DNA of 61,009 nt, the filler included, from Stramenopiles sp. TOSAG23-6 (lineage: Eukaryota), in the NCBI GenBank assembly GCA_900128565.1. It is 14 parts of 14 records of this genome, joined end to end, with 100 filler letters (N's around TTAATTAATTAA, not from the genome) between each part and the next. Parts side by side here need not be neighbours in the genome. Positions count along the whole stretch, not along the records: positions 56,764 to 61,009 come from LT637218.1; 13 more parts are not named here. One strand, written 5' to 3'. Position numbers and translations under genes: made by a program. Below, one piece after another: positions 13,149-60,059 of the stretch (position 1 is the first letter of the stretch; each line of letters begins with the position of its first letter). Under the pieces are notes generated by a model. That model was not told the DNA's origin. It was given only the letters and a program-made list of their open reading frames with translations, and ran no database searches.

Positions 13149-16005
13149 ATGTACTATTGTCTACTAATGAAAACACAAATATGGATAATACAAATGTACT
13201 ATTATCTAGTAATGAAAAGTATCTCGTGAAAACATCAAAAATTTCGATATCAAAAAAAAAGTCGTCAATTTATCATGGAGTAGAATGGCATTCAGATAGC
13301 GGTTGTTTTCTCTCAGTGTTACGTTGTACATTTGATCATAGTGAACATTTGAGTAATAAACAATCTAATGAAATGCAAGTAGTGGAAATGTCTTCATCCA
13401 GTGTGGATTGTTCAAATGAATTATCAAGTACAAAAAAGAGTACAATTATTAATCCGAATGAAATTCAACGAGAAAAGACAAATATAATGGTTAAGATGCC
13501 TACAAAAGAATTATCAAAACAAGTTGATGATGTTAAAAAAACAAAAAAACAAATGAATGATGATCAAAAAACAAAAAACATTGAATTGGTAAGTCGTTCT
13601 ATTGTTCTTGGTTTATATGAAAATGAATATGATGCAGCATTAGTTTATGATTGTGCGGCAAGAATGCAATCCGGAGATAATGCAATTATCAATTTTTTTG
13701 GTACTGTCAAAGAAAGAAATGTAAAAACAGCACAAGTACTATGGGCATTATGTGAAAAGTGCAATAAATGGCGTATTGTGGCTTCGGAACCTTCATCGGA
13801 ATCTGTGTTTACCTGTGATACTGTTGGTAGAAGCTGCTTTGAAGTGGAAGACACAACCGAATCTCTCGAAGCTGCGTTACATTCTGGTCGAGATATATCT
13901 TGTATTGGTCAAGTTTGGGACTCTATAGCTTTTGCTTCTATTGAATGGCGTAAAAAGATTGTTATGTGGAAACACAAAGTAAATGATATACGACCACCCA
14001 TACGACCAGAAGATGGCTTACATTGGTGGAGGCTTCTTGAAAAAGCTAGACGTGAAGAATTTCCGCCTCTTTTAAGTCATATGTATGTTTTATTTTTTTT
14101 TCAAATTCCAAATTTTTTTTCGTACGAAATTTTGTACCTAACGTTTTTTTTTTTTCGAAATATTTTTTCATAATCCATAGATGATGAGTGTACAAAGATT
14201 CAAAACAATATTGATGAAATTAATATCCGTTTAAAACTTGCGCATAATGATTTAAATGCTGCTGTGGCATTTGCTGGATCAATTGGAGTCAACTGTAATA
14301 TGTATGTTTTATTTTTTTTTCAATTTTTTAACCATTTTTTTTTCGTACGAAATGTTGTACCTAACGAATTTTTTTTTGAAATATTTTTCCAAATACAAAA
14401 GAGCGCCCAGACTCGATATCTCTGGAATCATTGGAAGGTATTAGTGACGTCATTGCTTACCGCCATTGGACATTTCGTAATGAATCGTATGAGAATAGCG
14501 CAGAAAGTTATATGATGGCAATGAAACTTCAAAAAAGACCAAGAGGTGTTCCTCCTTCAGACGATAGCATTTCAATAAAATACGCCTCAAAATTTGTCAA
14601 TTTGGAAGACGCACCTGTTTCTCTTCCTCCTGCTATCCCAATCATGCTAGACTACAATTATAACAAGAATAGTACATGTGAAACGGGTCAGTCATTTCAG
14701 ATGAATATGAATAAAATGGAAGTCGATGAGAATGATGCTAGTGTTGATGATTCGAGACCGAAGAAGCGAAGAAGAACATCTTTGAATTACGACACGAATG
14801 TGTTTGACAGATCTGGCGTTGAAATGAAGAATTCAAATAAAACAAATGGAAATACTATAAATGGCGATATGGGAAAGGTTCATCCTGATGCTCCTCTTCC
14901 CTTACGAGTTCGCCTGAAAAGTAACAATTTTAAAACAGGTCTAGCACCAATGGTTGCTCTTTATCGAAAAGGATCTTCTTTACCACGTTATTTGATGCAT
15001 TTACGTCCTACTTGGCCCAAAGTAAAAGTTGTTGAACCGGACCGAACTGAAGAAGAACTCGAAGAAGCGCAGCATCTTGCCGATGAAGAGTTACTTTCTA
15101 GTTTGAAGCCTCCTAAACGAGCATTATCAGCGTATACGTTCTTCATGAAGGTGAATCGAGTAAAAGTGATTGAATTAAATCCTGGTATCAAACAGACGAT
15201 GGTAATGACAAAAGTAAGTGAGCTTTGGAAATTAACAACTGAAGAAGGAAAAAAAGAATATATTGCAATGGCGGAAGAGGATAAAAAACGTTCTGTAAAG
15301 GAACGGATGGAATATGATTCTATTCGTGCTGGTCCTCTTCGCCGCGAAGCTGAGCGTGAACGTAGACTAAAAAAAGCAGAAAAGGAAGCAAAGAAACCTC
15401 CACCAAAATTATTTTCCAAAGTAGTTCAGGTGAGACCTCACCCAGCTGCATTACTAGGACGACATGATCTTCAAGGTTTATCTCTGACAGCTCAGTGTAA
15501 GGCACTAGGTTTTGCACCTTATTATTTTGTACTGACATACATCCCAGATTTACGATGGGCAAGATTAGCACCAATGGTCATTCGTGGCCGTTTTGAGTCA
15601 GAAGAACGAGGAATGAAAGATCTTGTTGGTCGTACACGGTGGATGCTTGAACCAGAAGGGTCCTCTATGGAGGAATTGGACATTCCTGCTTCTCGGTGTG
15701 TCATTGTTAGAAGTCGTGCCGTGCGACGTTGTCCTGATGCTGACAAAGAAGAATGGCATATTATTGATTATTCTGATGATGATATAGATAATAATCAAAC
15801 TCTGGATACTACTAAAAATGTAGTGGGTGGTGATAGTACAATTAGTGTAGTAGAGGATCTTTGCCAAGAGAAAAATAAGATGGTTTCAAATGCAATGATT
15901 GTATCAAGTGAGATCGATTGCAAACCAGTCATCAAACGGTTGGGTTCCAACTGTATTGATACCCCAGAACCTTTGATAGAAAAGACTCTACTTAATATAC
16001 CGTAA
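13149..16005 (+). CDS. chromatin protein with split AP2-like, CW zinc finger and HMG box; exons <13149-14082, 14179-14301, ~14400-16005
   Basis: SSIYHGVEW..LGLYENEYDAALVYD; WALCEKCNKWR..FTC..C; PPKRALSAYTFF..VSELWKLTTEEGKKEYIAMAEEDKKR. Confidence 0.8.
14083..14178 (+). mobile_element. family intron GT...CAT (96 nt)
   Basis: cat at|GTATGT...AATCCAT|a gat gives SHIDDECTK; using the adjacent AG (14179-80) gives an immediate TGA. Confidence 0.85.
14302..14399 (+). mobile_element. family intron GT...AA (or GT...AC if it ends at 14396)
   Basis: of the ends near the family terminus, only 14396 or 14399 join the long HMG-box frame. Confidence 0.7.
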
Positions 16006-16097
16006 TGTGTGAAGCATTTCAATTGACTTTTTAATGAAAAAAGAACGAAAAAAACTAATAAAAGTAGCAATTATTATCCTTCGTCATCCCATTGTTT

Positions 16098-26279: not shown

Positions 26280-26461
26280 GTTTTCATTATGAATTTCAAA
26301 TTTATTTTTTTTTCATACGAAATTTTGTACCTAAACAAAAAAGATTTTTTTTTAGTTTTTATTCAATACGTTTTCATCATGAATTTCAAGTTTACTTTTT
26401 TTTTTTTTATAAAAATTTTGTACCTAAACAATTTTTCTTGAAATATTTTTCTGTAGCACAG
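26280..26461 (+). mobile_element. family intron with internal duplication, ends in canonical CAG
   Basis: two TTTTGTACCTAAAC units; GAAATA+16 nt = TTTTTCTGTAGCACAG. Confidence 0.65.
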
Positions 26462-27289
26462 AATATTTGCAAAGCTTTCATCATGGGTAACGCCACTGAA
26501 AATATTCTTGATGATGCTGTCCGCCACTGCCAGTATGCGGTGAATGTAATTGTCCCTGTCAGTGAACGCCTATGTTGTGCTGGTGATAGTGATAGTGCGT
26601 TTCCATAATGAATTGTTTACCTACATCTTTTTTTCGTATGAAACTTTGTATCTAAGGATTTAAAAAAATATATATTTTTCACAATGTATGTGATGGTGAA
26701 AATATTAATTTAGAAAATTCTAATTGTGATAAAATTGTTCATAGTTCTAGGCAAAATATTGTTGATAAAAGTATATCTAACCAAAATCATCAAGAAAGAC
26801 ATTTACATATGAGAAAGACCTTGTGTGATCTATACCAAACATCAAATAGTCATCATGTTTGTTTTTTTTTTTTTTTCAAATTCGATTTTTTTTTTTATAA
26901 AAATTTTGTACCTAACAAATTCTAGTTTTTTTTTTTGAAATATTTTTCCAAAATACATGATCCATCACTTCATCATTTACTTTCAGCTCTACTAGAAGTA
27001 AATCCAAGGAAAAGATTAACACTTAAAGAAGCTCGAAGTCATCCATGGGTCACACTTGATGGGACTCATCCCATGCGCGATGAAAATTACGAAACAGAGT
27101 TAGTCACAAAAGAAGATATGAGTATGGCATTTTCAGTGGCTAAAATCGTAAATGATAAGGCAAAATCATGGCTGAATCGAGCTCGTAATACTATTTTTCG
27201 TTCTAAAGCACTTGAAAGAGAAAAGGAAAAAGAAAAGGAGGAAATGTTGAAGAATGAACGCGTCACTGCCTTGGTCATGACAGCTGCTT
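26462..27289 (+). CDS. Ser/Thr kinase (CaMKK-like) C-terminal exons 26462-26594, 26690-26856, 26959-27289 (further exon likely)
   Basis: LHHLLSALLEVNPRKRLTLKEARSHPWVTLDG = kinase subdomain XI; exons join in frame with GT..YAT introns. Confidence 0.7.
26595..26689 (+). mobile_element. diverged family intron GT...TAT (95 nt)
   Basis: gat a|GTGCGT...TTCGTATGAAACTTTGTATCTAAG...CACAATGTAT|gt gat, in frame. Confidence 0.65.
26857..26958 (+). mobile_element. family intron GT...CAT (102 nt)
   Basis: cat cat|GTTTG...AAAATACAT|gat cca, phase 0. Confidence 0.8.
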
Positions 27290-28662: not shown

Positions 28663-30459
28663 ATGGAAAATTGCAGACCTGTAGATAAGAGGATATCTTG
28701 TTGCAGTAATGAAGTAAAACCAAAAATTGGTAATCGGAGACGGAAGCTTCAGCAAGTTGATGGTGTTGGTCCCGAGCCAAATTCAAAAAGACCGAGGTAT
28801 CTAGAAAAGAATAATTCAAATTTAGCCACAAAAAATGCCCCATTGAGTACATTTCCTAATGGAATGATACCAGGTAAGATCAAATTACAACATGCAAGTG
28901 ATGTAGTTTCATTAGAAAAACCTTTTGCCCCGTTACGAGTTATTGATAGCAAAGACGATGTCACTTGTACGTCTGATACTTTGAACCCTCTACAGCATTG
29001 TTCCGAGTTTTCAAATAAGATAGCTATAGAAGTAACAGAGAAAGCAGTAGGATTAAAAAATGAAAAAACTTTATTGTGTAAGAAAAATCAATTGGATTCG
29101 AGTGAGGAAACTGGGTCGGAAGAAGAATTACGCGAACTCAGTTCAAACTTGATTTATTCGATAAATGGTGATACAAAAACAAGCAATACAACTTCAAGTG
29201 CTGTAGCGCCTAGAGATTTTGAATTCCGGCCGATAATAACAAATATCACTATTCCAACAAACGCCAAGACATTGAACAATGAAGTTGATGATTCAGAACA
29301 ACAAAATATTGTTGGGGTTCATAAGTTCAAACACGATGATCTAGATGAAATTTTACCTGGTTACGCTAAGGTATCCAAGTCGAAGGAAATATTCTACCAA
29401 CCTGATTTTAATTACATGCACAGGCATCCTGAATTAGAGGTTGTTATGCGCGCCATACTTATTGATTGGATGATGTAGGTTTTCAAAATTGAATTTCAAA
29501 TTTATTTATTTTTTAGTATGAAATTCCATACCTAACAATTTTTTCTACAATGTTTTTTTTTCACGATACATGGAGGTTTGTCATGAATACGGTTTAAAAA
29601 GAGTCACTCTCCAAAGAGCAATTAATTATACTGATCGCTATCTTTCAATATGCGAAGGTTTAGAAAAAGTACAGTTACAATTGCTCGGTGTTACATCGTT
29701 GTTCATAGCTTCTAAATTTGATGAAATTTACCCTCCAAGTGTACAAGATTTTGCAGTAACTACCGATGGTGCTTGTTCTAGAGATACTATTAGAGCTTTC
29801 GAAGGCAGGATCATTTCAGTTCTGAAGTGGCGATTAGTTCCTGTGACGTGTAATTGTTGGATCTCATATTATGTGCAGCGTCTTGCACATCTTCAAATTG
29901 CGTATAGAGCACAAAAAAAATCTAGCGCTAGTGTTTTGGTAACAAGGGAGTGGGATATCGACCGAGAAACGCCTCCACCATTGTATGGCTCTATTGATGG
30001 TGCTGGTGCCCCAGATTGTACACCTGCAGATGATGGACAAAAACGTGCAAAGCGTCGCTCATTTTCTGGTGTTTCTTCAGAAATGAATGATAAGAATCCC
30101 TCAAATAGTAAAGATATAAAAAATGTAGCCCAAATGCCACGTTTATTTGATCATAATGATGATAAAAATATATGCTCAGAAGCAACTGTGAAGAGCAACT
30201 TTAACGAAAAAAATGAAAATGATGTCAACAAAAAAAGATGTAACAATTTGCCAATTTCGAAACGTTCATCTCATTTCATGCATCGTATCAAAGACATTGA
30301 TACTGAAAATGAAACGGATAAGGTGCACATTGGAAATGCATGCTCTGCTTGCTTTCCACAAGATGCTGTCTTTCCCGAGGCTTTGTTTGAGAGAGCAACA
30401 GATTTAGTCGATCTTTGCGTCTTAGATTCTGTCGGTTTGACACATAGGAGAAGTCACAT
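28663..30459 (+). CDS. cyclin (E/A-like box); exons 28663-29474 and 29572-30459, 3' partial
   Basis: spliced MRAILIDWMMEVCHEYGL..AINYTDRYLS..LQLLGVTSLFIASKFDEIYPP. Confidence 0.92.
29475..29571 (+). mobile_element. family intron GT...CAT (97 nt)
   Basis: atg at|GTAGGT...ATACCTAAC...CACGATACAT|g gag restores the cyclin box. Confidence 0.85.
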
Positions 30460-30550
30460 GTATGTTTTATTTTTGTTTGAATTTCGAATTTTATTTTTCG
30501 TACGAAATTTTGTACCTAACGATTTTTTTTTGAAATATTTTTCCAAAATA
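30460..30550 (+). mobile_element. family intron, truncated at contig end
   Basis: cac at|GTATGTTTTAT...GAAATATTTTTCCAAAATA. Confidence 0.85.
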
Positions 30551-32088: not shown

Positions 32089-34908
32089 TTACAATTTTCC
32101 TTTATTTTTCATGGTAACTACTGTATTCCATTCATCTGTACCTGGACATAATCTATGGTAACCTATTGAGGCTGTTGACGTACTTACATCAGAGTGACAC
32201 ATACCTGCTTTTGGCATTTCCCCAAAAGGGCGAGGTATTTCTCCATGTAATACATCAACAATATCTCGTGCCAAATTCATTCCAATTGCTGCTTCACTCG
32301 CTCTTCGAGACTTGCGTTGTCCCTTACGGCGAATCGCCCATTTGTATAATAAATTTCGGTTGAATGGCATAGGTGCAAGTAATCCTATAGTATCCTTTAT
32401 CAAGGCTGACTTAATTCGCTTATCCAAATCATTTTCAATACCAAATGATGGTGAGGCATTCACTTCAAGTAACCATGGTCGAAGTGAAGAATCAATAATT
32501 ATATCATAACCATACACTTCGAAACAATTTGGTTGGTGTTTGATTAAATCATCAGCACAAACTAGTGACTTTAAAATCAATATATGTATATTTTTCTGTA
32601 ACTTTTGTGTATCAATATTTAATTTTTCTAGGCGTTGTAAGAGGAAACTATATGAAAGTTTACTTCCTCCTACTTCTGAGGATGGTGCAGTCATAAGAGG
32701 TGTACATGATATTGTGCTACGGTTTTGATAAAAGCTTTCAGTATTTTTCGATTCTTTTGTCCTTATCTCCGGTTTTTGTTGTACCGATGAATTTGTAAGA
32801 TGCATTCGAAGATCTTTGAGGTAATCCCTATTTATTGGTTCCTCAGAGTCGTCTGGATCTTCGTTACCAATTTTATACTTGACCGTTGACATTCTCGCAA
32901 AGCCTTCTGTGTAGATAAAAGCCTCTAGGGGTTGGAATGATGTAACAAGTACATATAATCTCAGATCGAATTTGTATCCATCAATCAGTAATGGTTCATC
33001 AATATATTGCTGTACCACATGTATTTTGGAAAAATATTTCAAAATATTTTTTGTTAGGTACAAACTTTCGTACGAAAAAAAAATCATACAAAAAAAAACA
33101 TACAGCTGCCTCGGAATAGCGTAGTGTTGGACTATCTGTAATTCTAATTCCTCTTCCACGACTCATCAGTGCGGGCTTGACAATCCAAAGATTTTGTCTT
33201 GTAACATTTACACTGCTAGCGTTTGAACGTTTATCGTCCATCACATGTTGTGAATGGATTAATTGATCCTTTCGCTCAAAAAATGCTTTTGTAAATGCGT
33301 TATATTCTGTGGGTAAAATAAATGTGGGTGGCTGTATCGAAAAAGTAGATAATACACCCCCCATTTTCCAATATCTCGCAAGTGTTTTACACAATAAATC
33401 TTTTCTTGTCAGGCAACGAGCACCAACAAAGCGATGAACACGTTGCCAAGGCAAAAGTTGATCAAATGCAAGACGTGGTTCCTGGAAACACCACAAGATA
33501 TTCCAAGCCATCCGAGAACTATACGGTGTGCTCAAAGAAGTCATTGATTTAGCAGACATACTTTTGTAAGTATTGTATGTCTTAGTGTCATCTTTAGGGT
33601 CGGTCTTGAATTTAAACTCACGAGTAGACTCATCTGGAAGCTCCCGCATTCCTAGTGCATTAAACTGCTCATGTACTAGACTATATACTTCAGATTTTCG
33701 TTTCGATACAACAAACCATAGTTGTTGATTACCCAACTTTTTCGATAAATTCATCATTTTATTATTGTAATGGTATCTATTATGCTTACTTTCGTCGTTT
33801 GTCGTTTTATTTAGATTATGCAAAAACTTTACACTACTCAGAGATTCTTCGCCATTATCTTTGGAGTAAAATTCATTATATCCACCGCTAACTCGAATAC
33901 TACAAAATTTATTGTAACTTTTCAAAGAGGATTCGCTTGCCCATGGCTTATACGTATTCTCTATACTATTCCATATCTTTAATAATTCCCTTTCAGCACT
34001 TTCGCTATGCCGTCGACTAGTCTGTTTATTCTGGCCTTGTTTTAAATTTTTCATCAATAATGAGGGGCGGAGCAACTCGATTTCATTAGGCCAAAGTTTT
34101 GAAAGTGGAATAATGTAATTGTCACTATCATAATCTATTTTATCTTTCTGTGTATCATTCTTGACGTTTTTAGTGAATAAAATATCTTTGCTGATTATCA
34201 TGCGTTTTGGTGGTAACTTATCAAAATTTGTCACACGTTTTATCGCATTTTCGTCATTAGAACCTACTACATTCCCTATTGTCACTTGATTACTTATACC
34301 ATCATTTTCATCTAGAATGAAAGATCCAGAAGGTGCGAAATTTGCGCCTCGCTTATCATCAGTATTCAATGTACTTACAGCATGCAATTTATCCTTACTA
34401 TCGCTTTGGTTCACCTCAATTGAATGAGGTTCATGTAGAAATTGTTCTTCATTCTTATTTATTTCACAACATTCATCATCTTCAAGGTTACCCTCTTCAT
34501 TCTTATTTATTTCACCACATTCATCATCTTCAAGGTTACCCTCCGGAGTCCAACCATCGTACCAATCATCAACTTCAGATTCTTCTTTGTCGCAGAATTC
34601 AATATTTGTTTGATCTAATTCTATGATAGGATCTTTTTGTACACTTGAGCTATCATTTATATGTTTATCGAGTTCAACTACTGTATTATTATTCGTACTA
34701 TTTGATTCATCCAATTCTATCATAGGATTATTTTGTGCATTTATATTTTCATGATGCTCAATTACTGTATTATTATTCGAGCTATTTGATTCATCTGATT
34801 CAATGATGGGATTATTTTGTGCATTTATATTTTTATGATGCTCAATTACTATCTTATTATTCGAGCTATTTGATTCATCTGATTCAATGATGGGATTATT
34901 TTGTGCAT
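32089..34908 (-). CDS. tubulin-tyrosine ligase-like (TTLL) polyglutamylase; exons <34908-33104 and 33018-32089
   Basis: LTRKDLL, WIVKPALMSRGRGI, VVQQYIDEPLLIDGYKFDLRLYVLVTS, MHLTNSSVQ, CFEVYGYDII, PWLLEVNASPS. Confidence 0.93.
33019..33103 (-). mobile_element. family intron GT...CAT (85 nt)
   Basis: gca gct|GTATGT...AAAATACAT|gtg gta cag gives YSEAAVVQQYI. Confidence 0.88.
34660..34908. repeat. 84-bp coding tandem repeat in TTLL N-terminus
   Basis: GGATTATTTTGTGCAT recurs at 34725, 34809 and 34893. Confidence 0.8.
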
Positions 34909-37765: not shown

Positions 37766-39199
37766 ATGCAACACTTTCTAACTTTCATTGTTTACGCCTC
37801 CATCATTCAAGGAACATTTTCATGCACTAATTATATGGTTACCAGAGGTGCATCAAATGATAATAGTACCATTGTGGCGTACAATTCTGATGGGTTTTCT
37901 CTATTTGGGTATCTTAAACACTTGCCAGCACAAGAATATGTCCCAGGAACTTTACGTGATGTGTATGACTTTACAAGTGGCAAATTTTTGGGTTCAATTC
38001 CAGAAGTATCGGCTACGTATAATGTGGTTGGTAACACAAATTCGGAAGGCCTTTCGATAGCAGAAACAACTTTTGATGGAATCGAAAAACTTGCAGAACC
38101 ATTTCCTGGATCCATACTTGACTATTATTCTTTAATGTGGATCACTCTTCAACGTACAAAAACTGCTCGTGAAGCAATCGCGACTATGGACATTTTAACT
38201 AGTAAATATGGATATGCGTCGACCGGAGAGTCATTTTCAATAGCAGATACGAAAGAAGTTTGGATCATGGAAATGATTGGTCGTGGGTTACATGAAAAAG
38301 GTACTGTTTGGGTGGCTAGAAAAATTCCTAATGGCGCCATCTCCGGCCATGCAAATCAGGCACGTATAGAATCCTTTCCTCTCAATTCCACAGATACTCT
38401 TTATTCTTCTGATATTTTTGAATTTTCTAAAAGGAACAATCTCACTGCACAAAATCTACCCAATTCAGAATTTAACTTTGCTCAAACATGTATGCTTTAT
38501 TTTTTTTTGGTATGAATTTTTTTTTCATACGAAATTTTGTACCTAACATTTTTTTTTTGAAATATTTTTTCAGAATACATTTGACCCTATCACCTCAATT
38601 GGTGCACGCGCATGTGACCTTAGGGTATGGAATTTTTTTCGTTTAGCTCTAGGCAAACAAAAAGGCAGAAAATTTGCAGATAAATATCTCGAATATGTGA
38701 AAGGTTACAATTTAAGTAGACGAATGCCTCTATGTATGTNGTATTTTTTTTTTAACAAAAAAATCGAATTTATTTTTCGTACGAAAATTTGTACCTAACA
38801 AATTTAAGTTTTTTTTTTTTGAAATATTTTTCAAAAATACATACGTACAAGTTGGTAATAATAAAGTGAGTGTCAATGATACGATGTGGGCGATGAGAGA
38901 TCGATATCAAAACACGTGGTTTGATCAAAGTGGTCGTGATAAGCCCGACATTAGTGCAGGGCCATTCCATTCCCTAGTAAGAACAAGACCTTTAGCATTT
39001 GAATTGGGACAAAAAAAATATTCATTCGAAAGGAATGTATGTTTTATTTTTTTTTTTTTTGTATGAATTTATTTTTTATAGTAAATTTTGTACCTAACAA
39101 ATTTTAGGGTTTTTTTTTTGAAATATTTTTCCAAAATACATGTTGGTTATCAAGGAACTTTTTTCAACTTTGTTGCCAATAGTCGTGGTCATTTTAAAT
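37766..39199 (+). CDS. peptidase C69 (dipeptidase/secernin); exons 37766-38489, 38581-38733, 38843-39036, 39142-39199, 3' partial
   Basis: signal peptide then catalytic C (SCTNYMVT), ETTFDG, ALQR-like ITLQRTKTAREAI, GESFSIAD, HANQARI; spliced FAQTFDP..LRVWNFF, RMPLYV, FERNVGYQGTFFNFVA. Confidence 0.9.
38490..38580 (+). mobile_element. family intron GT...CAT (91 nt)
   Basis: aca t|GTATGC...CAGAATACAT|tt gac; using the internal CAG would create TAA. Confidence 0.88.
38734..38842 (+). mobile_element. family intron GT...CAT (109 nt)
   Basis: cta t|GTATGT...AAAATACAT|ac gta, in frame. Confidence 0.88.
39037..39141 (+). mobile_element. family intron GT...CAT (105 nt)
   Basis: agg aat|GTATGT...AAAATACAT|gtt ggt, in frame. 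Confidence 0.88.
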
Positions 39200-39266
39200 G
39201 TATGTTTTATGTTTTTTCAAATTCGATTTTTTTTTCGTACGAAATTTCGTACCTAACGATTTTTTT
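39200..39266 (+). mobile_element. family intron, truncated
   Basis: aaa t|GTATGTTTT...TTCGTACGAAATTTCGTACCTAACG. Confidence 0.8.
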
Positions 39267-39553: not shown

Positions 39554-40078
39554 ATGGTGGAAATTCTAGGAAAGAAAGCTGACCCAAAGAAGGGATTAAA
39601 AATTTTCAAGACCAAATGTTCCCAGTGCCACGTTGCTGATCATGTAAGTTATTTTTGAAAATATTTTCATTGGTTGAAATTGTTTTTATGTTTTCCATCT
39701 TCTGACCCTCTCCATGTTGTCAACTGGCTACTTCGATATCCAGTTCATTTGGGATGAATTTTCGTGGAACACCCTTGCATATTATATCCCATAAAAGCTA
39801 ACTTTGTCATATACTTATATTTCTCCAAATTACAGGCAGGTGTAAATAAGCAGGGACCTAACCTTCACGGACTTATTGGCCGCCACTCTGGTTCTGTCGA
39901 TGGTTTCTCTTATTCCAAGGCTAACAAAGACTCTGGAGTAACGTGGGATCACAAGACCTTATTTGACTACCTCAAAGCACCAAAGAAGTTTATGCCAGGA
40001 ACTAAGATGGTTTTTGCTGGACTTAAGAAAGCTAGTGATCGTCGTAACTTAATCGCATACCTTGACTCACAAAAATAA
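39554..40078 (+). CDS. CYC: cytochrome c; exons 39554-39643 and 39836-40078, canonical GT-AG intron (copies at +4350 and +8700)
   Basis: CSQCH heme motif, [35 protein letters not shown]...CTAAC...TTACAG. Confidence 0.97.
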
Positions 40079-40303
40079 ATTGCTGAAGTGGGTTACGTTT
40101 TATATCTGTCTGTTACCCCTTCTTGTATACTTGGTGGGTCAATACAGATACAATATCAATAACAGTTAATGTAAGCAAAATAATATTTTTTCTAGTTTTA
40201 TATAAGAGCATTATTCTCAAAAATAAACGTCGTTCTAGAAATTTATAAGGATTTTGGATTTGTATATCCAAATTTGGAAATCTTGAACGTTTGAGAAAGA
40301 ACT

Positions 40304-41733: not shown

Positions 41734-42264
41734 TTAAAGTTCAGCATGGGCAGACCCTGGTTCTCCTTCACAACTTTTAATATCATTTTCTTGTAGTTGA
41801 GTCCATTTTTGAGTATCAATTTCATATTCCCACATACCTGCTTCACCGCAAAGTTTCATTAGGCTGGTTCCTCCACGCCGGTGGTTTCCCCACATAATAG
41901 TTGTACCACCGAATATAATCATTTTGTTACCAACTACACTTGCACTATGGAAAGCACGATATGGAGGCCATGCTGCTCCAGGTTGCTTGATGATTTGTTT
42001 CCACTTCTTCGTTGCGATTTCATATTCATATAAATCTTTATTCAAGAGACCACCTGAATAGTCCCAAGTGGAAAATGAATCACGCCAGACATACCCTGGA
42101 GTACCACTATATCCTCCATACATAATCAGCTTCGTGTTACCTGATGTCACCACAGTTGTGTGACCAAAACGCCTAGAAGGTATTTCATTCTCTTCTCCAC
42201 TTGCAACGTGATAATATATAAGAATATAAGCAACAAGTAATGACTTCATTGTGATCTTTTTCAT
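41734..42264 (-). CDS. secreted/ER kelch-repeat protein (copies at +4350 and +8700)
   Basis: signal peptide, PSRRFGHT..YGG, PPYRAFHSASVVGNKMIIFGG, C-terminal HAEL. Confidence 0.8.
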   Translation of the reverse strand: MKKITMKSLLVAYILIYYHVASGEENEIPSRRFGHTTVVTSGNTKLIMYGGYSGTPGYVWRDSFSTWDYSGGLLNKDLYEYEIATKKWKQIIKQPGAAWPPYRAFHSASVVGNKMIIFGGTTIMWGNHRRGGTSLMKLCGEAGMWEYEIDTQKWTQLQENDIKSCEGEPGSAHAEL

Positions 42265-42480
42265 GTCTACAATTTGTTGAACAAATGAATGAATAATTGT
42301 CTCGTTCAAATCAAAACAGAAATGAGCGTGGGTTTACTAAAAACACGAAATCCTAGCGCGTCGCTCAGACACGAGGTAGCAAAAGTGATTATATTTTTGT
42401 GGTTGCCAACGCGGTCATTCGCGGAGTGTAAATCTCAACACAATTCCAATATTTGTTGAAATTGGGTGAAATTCCATATA

Positions 42481-43527
42481 ATGGGGACCATCAAGGCTGC
42501 CAATAGTGGCATACAGTGTGATAATTTCTGCGACAAAGCCATATCACCTGCTGTATTTTCGTTGACTTCCGCTGCTCAAACTATTCGTAGTGTCATTTTG
42601 AAGAATGGCGCTCTCGTGACGTCACCAAGCATCCGTACAGCTGTTGAGCATTGCCGCGCACTTCTTGAATCGTTTGATTCAGTCTCGACAAAAACTAAAT
42701 ATAAACGCGAACGTGATACGAGGCCGTTGTTTAAAAGTAGAAAGCGTTTATGTACTTCTACCAATATTGGTGTAGGTGGTCGCTCCAATGCCTCTGATAC
42801 TAGTCTGCTGTCACTTCCGAACGTTTTACTGATTCATTCTCTTACTTTTCTTTCCCCAAGAGAGCTTAGTGACATCGCAACAACATCTCGATTATTTTAT
42901 TCTCCAGATTTTCGCAATAGTTATAGTAGCGAATGTAGCAACGGTACGATTAATAAGGGAAAAAAACTCATTCAAGTTGCATGCGAAATTCGGGCCAAAG
43001 CTTGTTTGCCGGTCTTTTTACAGCCCTTACGCCGGACGCACACAAAAACAATTACAAAAACCGTAGTAATAAACTCTTCAGAGAGTTGGGGTGAATGGAT
43101 GTCCAATATTGAATTTATATCAATGATGCGAAAACGACAACACGGTTTAAATACTTTAACTTTAGACGGTGCGAGCGGAGTACATCGCTGTTCTATTATA
43201 GCCAAACCTAACGAAGTCTATACTTACGAAAGCAAAACAAATGAAGATGACAGTTCAGACGAGGATCCTGGCTTCGAAAAAAATACATTTTGCATAGCAA
43301 TGGAAAAAATTACTCAAGTTTCGATAGGTGGTTGTTTCCATACCGCATTAGCAGAGAGTGGTGCTGTATATACGTGGGGAGATGGCGATTATGGCAGACT
43401 TGGTCACGGTGATGAGGTTGATTCCATTGCCCCAAAGATAGTTATGCCACTTCACAATAAAAAAGTGATACGAATATCTGCTGGATTTGAATATACAATG
43501 GCGTTGACAGACAAAGGGGAAGTATAT
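42481..43527 (+). CDS. F-box plus RCC1-repeat protein, exon 1 (copies at +4350 and +8700)
   Basis: LLSLPNVLLIHSLTFLSPREL; HTALAESGAVYTWGDGDYGRLGHG. Confidence 0.8.
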
Positions 43528-43616
43528 GTATGTTTTATTTTTTTTCGAATTCCAATTTTGTTTTCGTACGAAATTTTGTACCTAACGATTTTTTTTTCAA
43601 ATATTTTTCCAAAATA
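43528..43616 (+). mobile_element. family intron, truncated (redundant copies 47878-47966, 52228-52316)
   Basis: gta tat|GTATGTTTTAT...TTCGTACGAAATTTTGTACCTAACG...CCAAAATA. Confidence 0.85.
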
Positions 43617-52519: not shown

Positions 52520-55500
52520 ATTCATCTTTTGACATTGCATTATTATTCATTTGACGTTTCATTACGTTTTCCTGTTTATGTTTGTGTTTTGTCCTCCATG
52601 GACGTGAAGAATTTCGTCTTATCGATCGATCTCTGTACTTTTCGCATTCCTTTGGTGGATTGATTTTTTGACTATCAAATCGATGACGTCTTCTTCTATT
52701 TCCTTTTCCAATTGAGTATTTATTTACACGCCCTCGTCCACGACCCCGAAGTGATTTAGGGTTAGAGTTAAGGATACTGCTTTCATATTCTCTCGAAAAA
52801 GAAGGGAAAGGCACGTCAGCATTACTCGGAAAAGATGGATATACAATATCATGAGAGCTCATTGAAGGTGGTATCATCGATCCGCTCCCAGCTGTATGGA
52901 ATCCGAAATTACGACGACGGGTGTCAGCTGCTTTGATAGTAATACCCATCGAATTAGGATGATATGAATGTAAATTTCTTTTTTTTTGTTTTTCCACACT
53001 ATCTAAGAGCTCATCATAGGATATTGAATGATCTTTATCAGTATCATATTCACGAAATAATTTTCTCATTATGTCTCTGGAAGGTAATGGACGTATGCCA
53101 ACACCTGCAATGCCTTTGCAAAACTCTTCAAAAGAAATTCTATTTGATTTATGCATTTTCGAAAAATATTTCAGAAAAAAAATCGTTAGGTACATAATTG
53201 CGTACGAAAAATAATTTCGAAATTGAAAAAAAAACATACATTTTGATCCATCCATGAAAATAAGTGACCAGTTGTAACCATTTTTTTCTGTAGCGCAAAG
53301 CGTAAATCATCAACTGTTGCAATTTTTGTGTACTTACTATTAAATGGATCATTTGTATGCAAATTAGAGATTTTGTAGGGCGACAAAGTTTTAGGACTGA
53401 TTTTTCCTCGTCTTTCCTTCATCAATCGACGTTCTTCTGCAATTGCATTCCGAAGCAATGATTTATTTAGTGCATCGCGAGCCCTCCGTGCTGTTGTCTC
53501 ATCTTCTTTGGCCTTTTCAAACATTTCTAATTGAAGATAATTCCGATGCCTATTTCGTGTCAGACGCCCTCTAGCAATCGCCTGTATAAAGACAATTGAA
53601 TTAGTAATTTTTAATGCCTTTTTGTATTGCTTTTCTGTTGACCGTTTCGCTTTTTTAGCAGATTTCAACAAATCATAATCATCCATGTTTATGGATAGGA
53701 AATTCTGAATAAGCAAATTGCCATGTTTAGCTGCTTTGCCAACAACTATCCGTCCAATCTCATAATTAATATGAGTTTTCATCACAGTATTGATAAAATT
53801 GCATAATCTACTAAGAATAGAAATTTTTGTACGTTTCGTAAATTGTGACATTGACATTTGCTGTTCCTCTGGTGTTAGCAGAATATTACAAACATCACCA
53901 CTACTATCTATATTAAAAAGTATTTCTTTAACTATCAAAAATATGCTACTAAAAGTAGGTGTTCGTAGTCTGCTGTAATTCCTTGATGCAATTGTTTTCA
54001 TCAAACCTTCGGAAATGCAACCTTTCAATACATTGAATGTGTCCCTCACATAATTTGGCAGTCTATGTTCTTTTTCAAGTGCTTCTAATAGATTTCTATA
54101 CGATATTAAATTATTTGAGTCTAGTTCAAAGTTACTAAATAGCAACTTTGTATCGTTTCTAGAAATAGTTGGACGAAGATCCAGTTCAGCAATACCCCGT
54201 TTGAAGGTATTAAAATCAATTTTATATGTATCATGATGATTAAATAAAGCCCCAGTTGTGACATGAAATAAATGTAGTTGTCGTCGATAATTCCGCATTT
54301 TTCTACGTTGTTGTGGAGTTAAAACAGCCTTTACTTGTTGTATTTTGTTTGGTTTTTGAATAGTATGCTTTGTATCAATGGAGTTATTTTGAATTATAGG
54401 GCTAAATCGAACACTCTTTGGTCTCGTTCCTGGCCTCGACGAACTACGTCTAGATAAGATGCCTTCGCGTGGACGAGCTCCAGCTTTAGTGTAATTAGTA
54501 CTTTTTATAGCCCCATTCTCAGACGATTCAGCAGTAGCTTCCCTATTTTTCTTTTCAACCAATTCTAATTTTTGTTTATGCTGTATCAACGTTGATTTTA
54601 ATTTACGTTTTCTCTCTTGTTCGTTTTCGATTGCATGCTTAGTCCATGACTCAATATCAAAACGATCATCAGTTTTTTTATCCATTGGCTGGTTTATATG
54701 ACTATTTTCGTACTCACCATCTGTATCATCTTCAAAATCATCACCAAATGATGAATAGTTTGTTGAAGCTCTAGTTCTACCAGTATTTGCACGGGTTCTG
54801 CCCGTTGTTGAGCGCTGTGGAGTAGAAGATAAATTGTTCATGGGAGATGACTCTGGTAAAGACACTAGCTGCTCTTCCTCCTTATTTTCTACAATTTTCT
54901 TTTTTTGATGATGAAATAAATGTTTTACTCCCCCTTCTATTGTTTTCTCGACCACCATGGCACCATGTTTCGTCTTTTTTGTCGCAGATGTAAACGACTG
55001 TTCAGCTATCGCTGCGTCACTTTTCAATACTGTCAAAATATTAGAAGGATGTTTTTTGTCTGATTTTGACTGAACTATAGAAGATTCATCACCATCTGTA
55101 TCATCTTCAAAATCATCACCAAATGAAGAATAGTTTGTTGAAGCTCTAGTTCTACCAGTATTTGCACGGGTTCTGCCCGTTGTTGAGCGCTGTGGAGTAG
55201 ATGATAAATTCTTTACGGGAGATGACTCTGGTAAAGACACTAACTGCTCTTCGTCATTTGTATCCTTATTTTCTACAATATTGGAATGAGTTCTTGTGAC
55301 TAATTTTGACTGAACTATATCAGGAGATTCATCACCATCTGTATCATTTTCAAAATCATCACCAAATGATGAATAATTTGTTGAAGCTCTAGTTCTACCG
55401 GTATTTGCACGGGTTCTGCCCGTTGTTGAGCGCTGTGGAGTAGATGATAAATTATTTACGGGAGATGACTCTTGGTGACGGTGTTGGTGGTGACGGTGAT

Positions 55501-57253: not shown

Positions 57254-60059
57254 ATGTTTGTCGGATCATCAACATGTGTAAATAATGAGAAGGTTGGGAT
57301 GAAAGATCTCCATGAAAGTAGTAGTACAATTTCTGTAGATCATACAAAGGGACCTTCTAATGTTTTGGAGGACATTGACAGGCGTTGTGACCAGGTTAAT
57401 TCACGTCGAATTCAACGTCTTAAACGGCATAGTCATGCTCAGACTATTCTAGATCCTGTTTTGACCATTCGATCTCCGAAATCATCAAAACGTAAATCTT
57501 TAGATTCTAGTAAAACTGTTGTGACAGAGTCGTTAGGTACTGTTGAAAGAGGACGAAGTGGTAGCGTCCTTCTTGCACGAAGAGTTCTTGAGGCGGATGA
57601 ATTTAACCCTTTACTTCATTTTCCTACATCTGACTCGAATACGTCTATCGAATCACTAGATGTACATCATAAAATTTCATCATCTGTACATCACATTACT
57701 GAAGACCAACATTGTAAGAAAAATAATTTATATAATGGTAAAGACACAAAAAGAAAACAAAGTATAATGAATAGACAACATTGTAATAGAGGTAGTAATG
57801 AAGATGTTGAGAAGTTGTTCAAAAATAGTCAAAATAGTCATGAAAATATTTCTAATTTGTCTACATTGAAAACATATAGGCATTCATTGACATCTAATTC
57901 TTTAGATGATAGTACTACATCAATTCACAGTAAGAAGATTCAATCAAGAGAACCTTGGAATCTTAGTAGTAACTCTAACCCTAACCCTAACCCTTGGAAT
58001 CTTAGTAGTAACTCAAAACACAATACAAAAACGAAATCCTACCCAAATATAAAACATACAAAACATCAAACAATGAATGAAAATGAAAATATATTCACCA
58101 TGAAAAGCAAATCTCAAACATTTAAAAAAACACAAAAAACACAAAAAACACAAAAAACACAAAAGAATAATTCTTTATTAAATTCATTGAATGATGAAGA
58201 AAATTTTCGCATCTCATTAGGTCGTCAGACAGGATTGTTCCAAATGGTGAAGGCTGGTTCATATATAAGTCATACTCGTCAGTCACATGGCTTATTTAAT
58301 AATCTATTCCGTTTTTCTTATGCACAAATAAATGATAAAAACACAATTCTTACAAAAACACGAAATCTGAATGGTTTAAAATTTCGGTCGTTTGAAGAAT
58401 TTTCAACAAATCGTTCAAATATTACTGTCTGTTGTGAATTACCTGATTGTGCAGTAGTACGTTTTTTTTGTGTAGTACATTTTTTTAGAAAACAAAAATG
58501 TACCTAATTGCGAACTGTCCAATTTTTTTTTCATACGAAATTTTGTACCTAACAAATTTTGAATTGTGAACTGTCCAATTTTTTTTTTTTTTTTTTTTTT
58601 TTTTCGAAAAAAAAAAAAATTTTGTACCTAACAAATTTTGAATTTTTTTTTAAATATTGTCCTATATTGTACGTGTCACGAAATCATTTAGATAAAAAAG
58701 GAATATCTCACTCTACCATGTCTCATCTTGATGGTGGTACTGTTGAAGATGCGTTAGGTACAAAATATAGTACAAACATGTCAGATCCAATATTTCATAC
58801 AAAAAACAGTACAAATATTCCAACAAGTACATTTTTCATCTAACAAAAAACATTTTTTTTTTATAGTAAATATTGTACCTAACAAAAAACATTTTTTTTT
58901 TCATAGTGAATTTTGTACCTAATGAAAAACCAAAAAAAAAATAAATTAAATATTTTTTTACAATACATAAAATCATTCAACTGCATTTTCTCAAATGGGT
59001 GCAAAAAAAAATAGTAAAAATAATAATATTGTGAATATTAGAGAATATATAATACGTTTTCATTTCAAAAAAAATATTTTTTTTTTCAATTTTTTTTTTC
59101 AATTTCAAAAATTTTTTTTCAAATTTTTTTTTTCAAATTTTTTTTTTTTCAATTTTTTTTTCGTACGAAATTTTGTACCTAACAAAAATTTAAAATTTTA
59201 TTTTGAAATATTTTCACAAAAAACATGTTGATATTCCACTTATATTAATCATCGATGAACCAAATAATTCATATATATCAGAATTTGAAAATGATCAAAA
59301 AGATTTTTTTGCTACTTCGAACAAAATAAGTATCGAAAATCAAAATAAAAAAATCTTGAACCCAAATCTTTTGAAAAAAAAATCTTTAGGTACAAAATTG
59401 GGTACAAAAGAAAACATCGCTAATAAACCGAAAATTTTATCATGTAATATCAATATTAAAAACATAATGTATGTTTTATTTTTTTTTTCAAATTCGAATT
59501 TTTTTTCGTACGAAATGTTGTACCTAACAAATTTAAGTTTTTTTTTTTGAAATATTTTTCCAAAATACATTGGTGTTCGACATTTCGGAGCATCGGTGTT
59601 AATTGATGCTAATCATATAACATTTGAAAAAGATGAAAAACAAAATAGTTATATTTGGGGTAAATTATGTAAAAATTTGCCATCTAGCCAAGGAAGCCAA
59701 GATGAGAAATATTTGAGTGATATGTTTAATCATTTTAATGATACTAATGATGATACTAATGATGATGATCATCATAATGATACTACTACTAATAATAATA
59801 ATACTAATAATACTGATAGTAATACTACTACTACTACTAATAATAATAATAATGATAATAATAATAATGATAATGATAACACTATTACAAATCCTACAAA
59901 TAAAAAGGAAGAAAAAATGAAATTATTGACAAGAGGAAATAATTCTTCCACACGAGACAAAATTGTTTCAGTGTTTAAACAACAGCAACCAACAATACAT
60001 GGTTGGGTTCTCTTACAATATAATGAATATCATTTACTAAAGCCAAACCATATTAACAA

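What the first reader, a model, noticed from the sequence alone, without database searches (positions are those of the whole stretch)
59469..59570. Introns look like mobile elements: short terminal inverted repeat plus duplicated AT (introner architecture)
Seen: the consensus context is AT|GTATGTTTT...AAAATAC-AT. ATGTAT and ATACAT are reverse complements, and 18 of about 26 copies with a visible 5' end are preceded by exonic AT. Near-consensus copies (30460, 39037, 43528, 59469) coexist with decayed ones (26595, 27290, 29475, 60634), and all three phases occur. Known: introners in Micromonas and Aureococcus are non-autonomous DNA transposons that take splice sites from the TIR and the target-site duplication. 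Inference: an element GTAT...ATAC inserts at AT and duplicates it, and the second AT serves as acceptor, giving scarless removal. An exonic splice-site preference or reverse splicing could also explain the AT bias.
Basis: partly seen in the sequence, partly recalled or inferred. Interest (0 to 1): 0.85.

Follow-up and report, generated by a model that had tools for sequence, protein, structure and literature searches.

The report
Repeated mobile introns ending in AT
A roughly 100-base intron is repeated in dozens of unrelated genes of this marine protist and appears to be cut out from GT to AT instead of the usual GT to AG. This points to a mobile element that makes new introns, and it explains why standard gene prediction goes wrong here.

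Summary
Window 59469-59570 is one full copy of an 85-109-nt element. A profile search finds 36 distinct matches in 61 kb. The 45 pairs among ten full copies have a median identity of 76%, against 54% for shuffled controls.

Each copy carries GTATGT, an invariant ACCTAAC branch motif, a T run and a ...CAT 3' end. Protein continuity fixes four junctions exactly. These are one in a cyclin gene and three in a C69 peptidase gene. In each, the stretch removed runs from GT through AT, or the same length shifted by 1-2 nt. It never ends in AG.

Reading frames agree for 9 of 10 full copies. A canonical GT-AG intron in cytochrome c lies on a contig that also holds a family copy. AT precedes 16 of 18 visible 5' ends (P about 1e-14).

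The inverted repeat is only 4 nt, the constant AT cannot be told from a site preference, and I found no empty site, transposase or RNA junction read.

Verdict: an introner-like mobile intron family with a non-AG 3' end, a new variant of a known kind.

The parts
59469..59570 (+). Focal full copy of the intron family (102 nt). GTATGT lies at 59469-59474. Perfect palindromes are AAATTCGAATTT at 59490-59501 and TTTCGTACGAAA at 59504-59515. The branch motif TACCTAAC is at 59521-59528, a T run at 59538-59548, and the 3' module GAAATATTTTTCC...ATACAT at 59549-59570.
   Evidence: E 2.7e-19; phase 2 upstream and offset 1 downstream fit GT..AT
59467..59468 (+). Exonic AT directly before the focal copy. 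It matches the last two intron bases, 59569-59570.
29475..29571 (+). Decayed copy in a cyclin gene (GTAGGT...CATACCTAAC...CGATACAT). Its boundaries are fixed exactly.
   Evidence: The upstream exon ends at residue 51 and the downstream exon starts at residue 52 of cyclin E1 chain 8h6p_B. The same holds at residues 249/250 of the 52%-identical relative P0241.
38490..38580 (+). Copy 1 in the C69 peptidase gene, phase 1.
   Evidence: The GT..AT model aligns without a gap to homologues.
38734..38842 (+). Copy 2 in the C69 peptidase gene, phase 1.
   Evidence: Using the in-frame AG at +9 would delete three residues that all 9 homologues keep.
39037..39141 (+). Copy 3 in the C69 peptidase gene, phase 0.
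   Evidence: The internal AG 10 nt after the branch motif is not used.
39200..39266 (+). Copy 4 in the same gene, cut by the contig end.
14083..14178 (+). Full copy ending ...AATCCAT. A TAG lies 2 nt further on but is out of frame.
   Evidence: An independent seawater DNA run (X1) has contigs that enter this copy from both flanks (records 1 and 6).
14302..14396 (+). Exceptional copy ending ...CCAAATAC|AAAAG. The reading frames fit GT..AC (or AT..AT), not GT..AT and not AG.
   Evidence: The sequence from 14393 onward is confirmed by X1 record 7.
26857..26958 (+). Full copy with a GTTTGT 5' end.
33019..33103 (-). Full copy in a tubulin-tyrosine-ligase-like gene, preceded by CT rather than AT.
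   Evidence: GT..AT gives VVQQYI and leaves a 1-residue gap against TTLL6 and TTLL7. The in-frame AG at +9 would leave a 4-residue gap. This is not decisive.
53151..53239 (-). Full copy ending ...AATGCAT, phase 0.
   Evidence: (best hit, E 8e-20)
30460..30550 (+). Near-full copy at a contig end, second intron of the cyclin gene.
   Evidence: The relative P0241 runs on after the matching ...RRSH.
43528..43616 (+). Near-full copy at the end of contig 10, in an RCC1-repeat gene. Identical copies lie at 47878-47966 and 52228-52316 in duplicate contigs.
39644..39835 (+). Comparator: a canonical GT-AG intron (GTAAGT...GCTAAC...TTACAG) in cytochrome c, on the same contig as the copy at 43528. It is not a family member.
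   Evidence: Exon 1 ends at residue 31 and exon 2 starts at residue 32 of chain 1ccr_A. It is 50-58% identical to family copies, the shuffled baseline, and gives no profile hit.
26280..26460 (+). Two head-to-tail decayed copies upstream of an ATG, probably in a 5' untranslated region.
58440..58966 (+). A run of partial copies in an AT-rich stretch without a long ORF.
59364..59420 (-). The only antisense match. It is partial (profile positions 25-81), has no ends, and lies inside a putative + strand exon.
   Evidence: (E 8e-7)

Best explanation
This is a high-copy family of short (85-109 nt) spliceosomal introns that all descend from one mobile element. It is an introner-like element in a marine microbial eukaryote.

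How each copy works (inferred from sequence): every copy brings its own splicing signals.
- A yeast-like 5' site, GTATGT.
- An invariant branch motif, (T)ACCTAAC, 32-44 nt from the 3' end.
- A T run.
- A 3' end, CAT.

The copy is removed from the transcript from the G of GTATGT through the T of CAT. The intron therefore ends in AU, not AG. Because the exon before it also ends in AT, removal leaves a single AT and no scar. The same product would arise if both cuts lay 1 or 2 nt upstream.

Shown here: the family, its signals, the exact stretch removed, and the presence of a normal GT-AG intron on a contig that also holds a family copy.

Inferred, with my odds:
- Removal is by the major (U2-type) spliceosome, about 0.7.
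- The first intron G pairs with the last U in the second step. This would resemble in shape the A-C pair of AT-AC introns (recalled, untested).
- The element spreads by insertion at AT dinucleotides. I put about 0.45 on DNA insertion with a 2-bp AT duplication, about 0.3 on reverse splicing into transcripts, and the rest on unknown routes.
For: Family:
- 36 distinct profile matches lie in 61 kb.
- The 45 pairs among 10 full copies have median identity 0.76 (range 0.59-0.89). Shuffled controls have median 0.54 and maximum 0.60.
- The copies sit in unrelated genes: cyclin, C69 peptidase, a TTL-like gene, ETF-alpha, an RCC1-repeat gene, and AP2, PHD and EF-hand proteins.

Repeat status:
- 14 of the 24 ends of the 12 distinct contigs fall inside a copy.
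- In an independent seawater DNA run, summed contig depth over the copies is 7,204-45,444, against 5-7 on the unique flanks. The tool warns that this is not a copy number.

Boundaries:
- 4 of 4 junctions tested in conserved proteins are exact with GT..AT.
- 9 of 10 full copies fit GT..AT by the longest flanking ORFs. Chance would give (1/3)^9.
- The nearest downstream AG is out of frame in 8 of 10 copies.
- The public CDS P0121, spliced at canonical sites, carries a 9-residue insertion, a 3-residue deletion and a read-through that are absent from 9 homologues.

Signals and orientation:
- ACCTAAC is invariant and C-A-T near-invariant in the alignment of 10 copies.
- 27 of the 36 matches abut or interrupt an ORF of at least 70 codons on their own strand. 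One partial match is antisense, and 8 lie where there is no such ORF.
- AT precedes 16 of 18 visible 5' ends.
Against: - No RNA read or contig bridges a junction. The RNA contigs laid on 13149-17427 cover exons only sparsely, and none spans 14083 or 14302. Splicing is therefore inferred from protein continuity only.
- One full copy (14302) does not fit GT..AT.
- In the 16 copies preceded by AT, the register of the cuts is undetermined within 2 nt.
- As far as I recall, a major-spliceosome intron class ending in AU has no precedent.
- A cell that also splices ...CAG| in cytochrome c must tell the two classes apart in a way I cannot name.
- In copy 14083 a good TAG lies 2 nt past the inferred cut and is passed over.
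- Mobility is inferred from similarity alone. I have no empty site, no polymorphism and no autonomous copy.
- No conserved RNA fold was found: RNAalifold predicts 0 pairs on 9 copies, and single-copy fold z-scores run from -3.2 to +0.8.
Confidence: 0.75

Rival explanations
1. The element is a non-autonomous cut-and-paste DNA transposon with GTAT...ATAC inverted ends. It inserts at AT and duplicates it, and the second AT then serves as the acceptor.
For: - AT stands on both sides in 16 of 18 copies.
- The ends GTAT/ATAC are complementary.
- Only positions -2 and -1 of the flank are biased, as for a 2-bp target.
- In passages of Gozashti et al., 78.5% of non-ascomycete introner families that could be scored have a target duplication or inverted repeat.
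- A similar TA...inverted-repeat...TA model was proposed for Physarum introns.
Against: - The inverted repeat is 4 nt, and the next 26 nt are no better than shuffles (P 0.05-0.67).
- The repeat is the same at all copies, which the quoted criterion calls ambiguous.
- Of the two non-AT copies, 33103(-) still carries AT at its 3' end; the 3' end of 12993 is cut off by the contig end.
- No complete antisense copy exists, even among the 8 matches outside ORFs.
- No transposase domain was found in 10 large ORFs.
- I recall no superfamily with an AT-specific 2-bp duplication; Tc1/mariner uses TA.
- The non-family cytochrome c intron is also preceded by AT.
Confidence: 0.4
2. The family spreads at the RNA level. 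The excised intron (GU...CAU) reverse-splices into transcripts after an AU, is copied to DNA and is recombined in. The AT before the intron is then a site preference, not a duplication.
For: - All 27 copies next to ORFs are in sense, as are the copies in ORF-free stretches.
- Both splice sites lie inside the stretch removed, so the excised RNA is the whole element.
- The last six intron bases (AUACAU) are complementary to the 5' junction AU|GUAU. This could guide an AU-specific attack; that step is inference.
- Fungal introner-like elements without a target duplication or inverted repeat have been read this way, according to a passage of Gozashti et al..
Against: - It needs a separate reason why the preferred exon end equals the intron end.
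- The terminal helix shows no compensating changes.
- Sense bias also arises from selection. I recall that Micromonas introners are nearly all in sense yet are held to be DNA elements.
- No reverse transcriptase was seen in the window (only 10 ORFs scanned).
Confidence: 0.3
3. The same removal in another register, or by the minor spliceosome. Either the cuts lie 2 nt upstream on both sides (AT...AC), or the family is handled by a U12-type machinery, which tolerates odd 3' ends.
For: - The product is identical for the 16 copies preceded by AT.
- AT-AC is a known pair.
- The family's long conserved 5' site (GTATGTTTT) and its branch motif differ from the U12 consensus at few positions.
Against: - GTATGT is a perfect major-type site, whereas /ATGTAT is a poor one.
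- Copy 33103(-) would then begin with CT.
- The U12 motifs quoted ([G/A]TATCCTT, TTCCTT[G/A]AC) are not met.
- The invariant branch motif lies 32-44 nt from the 3' end. As I recall, U12 branch sites lie about 10-20 nt away.
- No snRNA gene is in the window to test this.
Confidence: 0.1
4. These are ordinary old introns whose likeness reflects only unusually long, strict splicing signals in this lineage.
For: - The most conserved parts are the presumed signals: the 5' site, ACCTAAC and CAT.
- Decayed copies keep mainly these parts (29475).
Against: - Likeness extends over the whole length, including two palindromes with no known splicing role.
- Contigs break inside the copies.
- Four copies lie within 780 bp of a gene whose homologues include many bacterial ones.
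- The cytochrome c intron, on a contig that also holds a family copy, shares none of the family sequence.
Confidence: 0.03
5. The element is removed from DNA rather than RNA, like the internal eliminated sequences of ciliates, which are bounded by a repeated dinucleotide.
For: - A short AT-rich element is bounded by a repeated dinucleotide.
- Removal is precise and leaves one copy of that dinucleotide.
Against: - The element carries a full set of spliceosomal signals and is strictly in sense. DNA excision needs neither.
- The standard genetic code gives long ORFs.
- The element stands in bulk seawater DNA at the same sites.
Confidence: 0.02

Closest known systems
Introners of marine algae (Micromonas, Aureococcus and many others; Gozashti et al. 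preprint 10.1101/2022.06.06.494994 and PMC12130899, passages read; Huff et al. 2016, recalled)
   Same: - One sequence family makes up many short introns in unrelated genes of an aquatic protist.
- The copies are non-autonomous.
- Splice sites are carried by the element or taken from the flank, so that removal does not change mRNA length.
- A single family can dominate intron gain.
   Different: - The 3' end here is AT, not AG. The surveys accepted only AG or AC 3' sites and discarded families with unfamiliar sites unless RNA data backed them.
- The inverted repeat here is 4 nt, against their threshold of at least 6.
- The flanking repeat is constant, so a target duplication cannot be called.
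Non-canonical introner elements of Amoebophrya (PMC7789003, passages read)
   Same: - Repeated introns have non-GT-AG ends.
- Direct repeats overlap the exon/intron borders and inverted repeats join the two ends.
- The host is a marine protist.
- Gene predictors fail on these genomes.
   Different: - In Amoebophrya the inverted repeats are 8-20 nt, the direct repeats 3-5 nt, the end dinucleotides are many and varied, and a U1 component is missing.
- Here there is one fixed pair (GT-AT), a perfect major-type 5' site and branch motif, a 2-nt repeat and only a 4-nt inverted repeat.
Transposon-like U12-type introns of Physarum polycephalum (preprint 10.1101/2020.10.12.336362, passages read)
   Same: - Introns were gained en masse.
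- Their ends form a short inverted repeat flanked by a repeated dinucleotide (TA...rtatctt...aagATAT).
- GT-AT borders occur.
- The authors proposed a DNA element whose duplication restores the frame.
   Different: - The Physarum introns carry U12-type 5' sites and a branch motif 10-12 nt from the 3' end.
- Here the motifs are major-type and the branch motif lies 32-44 nt away.
- Physarum shows signal-level likeness, not likeness over the full length.
Fungal introner-like elements (van der Burgt et al. 2012, recalled; described in a passage of Gozashti et al.)
   Same: - The elements are short and found only in genes, in sense.
- They lack a clear inverted repeat or target duplication.
- Reverse splicing has been proposed as the way they spread.
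   Different: - The fungal elements end in canonical GT-AG.
- Here the 3' end is AT and a constant AT flanks the 5' end.
Non-canonical introns of the tunicates Fritillaria and Oikopleura (PMC13326754 and 10.1101/2025.08.15.670264, search listing and start of abstract only)
   Same: [quoted passage not shown]
   Different: - Those introns vary at both ends and are not one sequence family. What I saw is limited to the abstracts.
- Here only the last base differs from the rule.

Membership tests
Introner / introner-like element | Introns in unrelated genes are alike along their whole length, not only at the splice signals. | tested here: met
   The 45 pairs have median identity 0.76, against 0.54 for shuffles and 0.50-0.58 for a non-family intron. 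There are 36 profile matches.
Introner / introner-like element | The copies are removed from the transcript as introns. | tested here: inconclusive
   Four junctions are exact by protein continuity and 9 of 10 fit by reading frame. No RNA junction read was obtained.
Introner / introner-like element | Gain is recent: positions are not shared with relatives, or presence varies between individuals. | not testable with these tools
   No genome of this organism or of its relatives is held. One seawater DNA run has copies 14083 and 14302 at the same sites.
Non-autonomous inverted-repeat DNA transposon (MITE-like) | Terminal inverted repeats. The survey quoted asked for at least 6 nt. | tested here: not met
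   Only GTAT/ATAC is complementary. The match beyond 4 nt is not above shuffles.
Non-autonomous inverted-repeat DNA transposon (MITE-like) | A target-site duplication, shown by a flanking base that matches within a copy but varies between copies. | tested here: inconclusive
   Only the constant AT repeats. Position -3 and the base before the 3' AT do not match. The criterion is quoted.
Non-autonomous inverted-repeat DNA transposon (MITE-like) | Copies occur in both orientations, and an autonomous partner encodes a transposase. | tested here: not met
   One partial antisense match among 36. No transposase domain in 10 ORFs. Only 61 kb was searched.
Canonical major-type (GT-AG) intron | GT at the 5' end, a branch motif and AG at the 3' end. 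| tested here: not met
   The 5' site and branch motif are present. The 3' end is AT in 9 of 10 copies and AC in 1. AG is excluded at 4 exact junctions.
U12-type (minor) intron | A [G/A]TATCCTT 5' site and a TTCCTT[G/A]AC branch motif close to the 3' end (motifs as quoted). | tested here: not met
   The 5' site is GTATGTTTT. The invariant motif is ACCTAAC, 32-44 nt from the 3' end.
Amoebophrya-type non-canonical introner | Inverted repeats of 8-20 nt, direct repeats of 3-5 nt over the borders, and many different end dinucleotides. | tested here: not met
   The inverted repeat is 4 nt and the direct repeat 2 nt. One end pair dominates.
Ciliate-type eliminated DNA sequence | No strand preference and no need for splice signals. 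| tested here: not met
   All 27 copies next to ORFs are in sense, and the splice signals are invariant.

The most novel reading that the evidence does not exclude
In this marine protist a mobile element has written a second splice-site class into the genome. Thousands of element-derived introns would be removed by the ordinary major spliceosome at ...CAU|, with the AU coming from the element's AT insertion site. Older introns on the same contigs are still removed at ...CAG|. If so, 3' splice-site choice here is set by something other than the AG rule. One candidate is pairing of the intron's last bases with the 5' junction AU|G.
Probability: 0.35. Interest if true: 0.85.

Novelty: new variant of a known kind. 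Interest (0 to 1): 0.72.

Why it matters
1. It would add a heterotrophic marine lineage in which one element family supplies nearly all the introns I could identify in the window. That makes intron gain by mobile elements directly visible.

2. It would be a natural case of many introns ending in AU beside normal AG introns. The question of how the second splicing step picks its site becomes testable with one organism's RNA data.

3. There is a practical consequence now. A public coding sequence for one gene of this window is mis-spliced at all three junctions because canonical sites were imposed. Proteomes predicted for such uncultured protists, and surveys of introners that accept only AG or AC 3' ends, will miss or distort these genes.

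Tried and rejected
RNA and genome data:
- RNA junctions: three metatranscriptome runs and one DNA run were laid on 13149-17427. The RNA contigs were 150-307 nt and none bridged an intron. The listed joints link one copy of the element to another and show no precise deletion; 61 joints were not shown.
- Whole genome: none is held.

Searches for more copies:
- An exact 25-mer found nothing in metagenome contigs.
- A gapped pattern gave 26 loci, none of which matched the profile.
- A 19-mer found nothing in viral contigs.

Other tests that gave nothing:
- snRNA and tRNA genes in the window: none.
- Transposase domains: none in the 10 ORFs scanned.
- Conserved RNA structure: none. RNAalifold predicts 0 pairs, and single-copy folds are weak.
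- An extended inverted repeat of about 23 nt that I thought I saw by eye was not significant.
- A palindromic target motif around AT is not supported once counted properly.

Inconclusive cases:
- The TTL-like junction has an in-frame AG 9 nt downstream.
- The intron at 41135(-) has a GTAAGT 5' end, and both ACAT| and AAAAG| keep its frame, so it tells nothing.
- A search for a public CDS or transcript across the cyclin junction found none in the length class searched. The representative search gave a 52% relative instead.

Literature:
- Six searches and passages of two papers on single-cell genomes of marine protists turned up no description of this family or of GT-AT introns in such organisms.
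- The library is partial and supplements were closed, so this is weak evidence that the family is undescribed.
Full report
WHAT THE WINDOW IS

The 61,009 bases are 14 contigs of 4,246-4,283 bases in falling order of length. They are joined by N44-TTAATTAATTAA-N44 linkers. Three contigs (39367-43616, 43717-47966, 48067-52316) are identical letter for letter. All counts below take them once.

G+C is about 24-39%. ORFs under the standard code are long, up to 938 codons. The genes are eukaryotic: cyclin, kinesin, a tubulin-tyrosine-ligase-like gene, cytochrome c, ETF-alpha, AP2-domain proteins, TRAPP and RCC1 repeats.

The stretch 13149-17427 stands in seawater metagenomes, so the organism is marine. 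The best named relatives of one protein are algal, Triparma and Prymnesium at 53-56% identity. The source label of an identical public CDS hints at a marine stramenopile assembly; that reading rests on the label alone.

THE OBSERVATION

Window 59469-59570 reads AT|GTATGTTTTATTTTTTTTTTCAAATTCGAATTTTTTTTCGTACGAAATGTTGTACCTAAC...GAAATATTTTTCCAAAATACAT|T.
- A profile of six full copies finds 38 matches with E<0.01, or 36 distinct places. The six seeds match by construction.
- Ten copies have both ends inside a contig. Their 45 pairwise identities have a median of 0.76 (range 0.59-0.89). Shuffled controls have a median of 0.54 and a maximum of 0.60. A non-family intron on one of these contigs scores 0.50-0.58.
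- The likeness covers the whole length. It includes two perfect 12-nt palindromes with no known splicing role.
- Fourteen of the 24 ends of the 12 distinct contigs fall inside a copy, as expected if the assembler broke at a high-copy repeat.
- In an independent seawater DNA run (X1), summed contig depth is 5-7 over unique sequence and 7,204 to 45,444 over the three copies in that stretch. The tool warns that this sum is not a copy number. The same run has contigs that enter copies 14083 and 14302 from their flanks, so these copies are not an artefact of this one assembly.

WHERE THE INTRON ENDS

For the ten full copies I took the longest open frame on each side. All nine copies that end in CAT fit removal from the G of the 5' GT through the T of CAT. 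Chance would give (1/3)^9. The tenth copy (14302-14396) ends ...CCAAATAC|AAAAG. It fits only GT..AC, or AT..AT with both cuts moved.

Four junctions are fixed exactly.
- Cyclin gene. The exon before 29475 ends at residue 51 of cyclin E1 chain 8h6p_B (...MRAILIDWMM). The exon after 29571 starts at residue 52 (EVCHEYGL...). A 52%-identical relative, P0241, reads ...LIDWMMEVSHEYGL... without a break. The two exons meet it at residues 249 and 250.
- C69 peptidase gene. Removing 38490-38580, 38734-38842 and 39037-39141 gives a protein that aligns to homologues without a gap at any of the three junctions...FAQT|FDPIT......RMPL|YVQVG... and ...FERN|VGYQGTFFNF... (11 homologues, 9).

AG can be set aside.
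- The nearest AG downstream is out of frame in 8 of 10 copies.
- In 38734 the in-frame AG at +9 would delete three residues that all nine homologues keep.
- In 14083 a TAG lies 2 nt past the cut and would run straight into a stop.
- AGs 10-12 nt after the branch motif, as in 39037 and 38734, are not used.

A public CDS identical to exon 1 (P0121) was built with canonical sites. Compared with the nine homologues it carries a 9-residue insertion at the first junction, a 3-residue deletion at the second and a read-through into a stop at the third.

Because 16 copies are preceded by AT, the same product would arise from cuts 1 or 2 nt upstream (TG..CA or AT..AC). I prefer GT..AT for two reasons. 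GTATGT is a perfect major-type 5' site. Copy 33103(-) is preceded by CT yet keeps the same intron ends.

The TTL-like junction favours GT..AT. It leaves a 1-residue gap against TTLL6 and TTLL7, whereas the in-frame AG at +9 would leave a 4-residue gap. It is not decisive.

A NORMAL INTRON ON A CONTIG THAT ALSO HOLDS A FAMILY COPY

Cytochrome c on contig 10 is split by a 192-nt intron, 39644-39835 (GTAAGT...GCTAAC...TTACAG).
- Exon 1 ends at residue 31 and exon 2 begins at residue 32 of chain 1ccr_A.
- The intron is not a family member.
- The same contig ends in a family copy (43528-43616).
- So the cell handles both ...CAG| and ...CAT|.
- This intron is also preceded by AT (gatcat|GTAAGT).

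THE AT AND THE ENDS

AT precedes 16 of 18 visible 5' ends, against a background of 0.098 (P about 9e-15). Only positions -2 and -1 of the flank are biased.

The inverted repeat is GTAT/ATAC. Beyond these four bases the two ends match no better than shuffles. The last six intron bases can pair with AU|GUAU, and this helix appears in the minimum-energy fold of four or five of ten copies. Folding energies are unremarkable, however (z from -3.2 to +0.8). RNAalifold finds no consensus pair in nine copies, and variant copies show no compensating changes.

The survey by Gozashti et al. states that a flanking repeat which is the same at all copies cannot be told from an insertion-site preference, and it scores such cases as ambiguous (passage). 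That is the position here.

ORIENTATION AND PLACE

Of the 36 matches:
- 27 abut or interrupt an ORF of at least 70 codons on their own strand.
- One (59364-59420) is partial, has no ends and is antisense.
- Eight lie where there is no such ORF. These include head-to-tail decayed copies upstream of a start codon (26280-26460) and runs of partial copies at 58440-58966. All are on the strand of the neighbouring genes.

No transposase-like domain was found in ten large ORFs.

HOW IT MOST LIKELY WORKS

Shown:
- One element family.
- Its invariant parts: the 5' site, ACCTAAC at 32-44 nt from the 3' end, a T run and CAT.
- Scarless removal of the element plus one AT.
- Coexistence with GT-AG splicing.

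Inferred:
- The major spliceosome removes the copies. Its snRNAs would recognise GUAUGU and UACCUAAC. The only departure from the rule is U for G at the last intron base.
- From recalled work on the first and last intron bases, a G-U pair could take the place of the usual G-G contact, much as A-C does in AT-AC introns. I did not test this.
- I cannot explain how CAU is chosen over the earlier AU dinucleotides and the nearby AGs. Pairing of CAU with the 5' junction AU|G is one untested idea.

On spread, DNA insertion with a 2-bp AT duplication explains the two ATs in one step and fits what is known of most non-fungal introners. Reverse splicing explains the strict sense orientation and the fact that the excised RNA is the whole element. 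I put about 0.45 and 0.3 on these two.

COMPARISON WITH WHAT IS KNOWN

The family meets the working definition of introners. It fails the tests for a MITE-like transposon, for U12-type introns and for the Amoebophrya type of non-canonical introner (see the membership table).

The closest parallels are:
- Marine algal introners, which share the logic but end in canonical sites.
- Amoebophrya elements, which are non-canonical with direct repeats over the borders but have long inverted repeats and many end pairs.
- Physarum U12-type introns, which have TA-flanked short inverted ends, some GT-AT borders, and a proposed transposon origin.

The large introner surveys accepted only AG or AC at the 3' end unless RNA data showed otherwise. 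A family like this one would probably have been missed.

Six literature searches and passages of two papers on single-cell genomes of marine protists gave no description of it. The library is partial and supplements were closed.

VERDICT

The introner reading is supported at the level of a mobile intron family. The transposon mechanism (inverted repeat plus target duplication) is not shown. I rate it a new variant of a known kind, with interest 0.72. The main gap is the lack of RNA junction reads.

Noticed in passing
window 4284-4383 and 12 further linkers; 39367-43616 = 43717-47966 = 48067-52316: The window is 14 short contigs joined by N44-TTAATTAATTAA-N44 linkers in falling order of length. 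Three of the contigs are identical letter for letter, so the assembly holds redundant records.
   Followed up: yes
window 39554-40078 (+): A cytochrome c gene is split by one canonical GT-AG intron (39644-39835). This is the only intron in the window whose ends I could fix that is not a family member.
   Followed up: yes
window 37766-39266 (+); protein P0121: A public annotated CDS for the C69 peptidase gene is mis-spliced at all three junctions. It has a 9-residue insertion, a 3-residue deletion and a read-through to a stop, because canonical sites were imposed.
   Followed up: yes
window 14302-14396 (+): One otherwise near-consensus copy ends ...AAATAC|AAAAG, and the reading frames need GT..AC. 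It may show that the 3' cut tolerates C as well as T, or it may hide a second change nearby.
   Followed up: partly
window 26280-26460, 29475, 30751(-), 59054, 60634: A second 5' module, GT(AC)GTTTTCAT(T/C)ATGAATTTCAA..., replaces the usual GTATGTTTTATTTT...CAAATTCGAATTT in several copies, so the family has sub-families. At 26372/26373 two copies abut head to tail with no AT between them.
   Followed up: partly
window 59364-59420 (-): A partial antisense copy of the element's middle part lies inside a putative + strand exon and is read in frame (KKKSLGTKLGTKENI...). It may be an exonised fragment.
   Followed up: no
window 41066-41135 (-): An intron with a GTAAGT 5' end lies in a gene whose product I guessed by eye to be a kinetochore protein; I did not test that guess. 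Both ...CATACAT| and ...CTAAAAG| keep the frame, so AT ends may not be confined to the family.
   Followed up: partly
window 59490-59501 and 59504-59515 (and the same places in other copies): The element holds two perfect 12-nt palindromes, AAATTCGAATTT and TTTCGTACGAAA. Neither is needed for any splicing signal I know of. Whether they bind a protein or form DNA hairpins is unknown.
   Followed up: no
window 38490-39266 (+): Four family copies lie within about 780 bp of one gene, leaving exons of 153, 194 and 58 nt. This suggests local or repeated insertion into the same gene.
   Followed up: no
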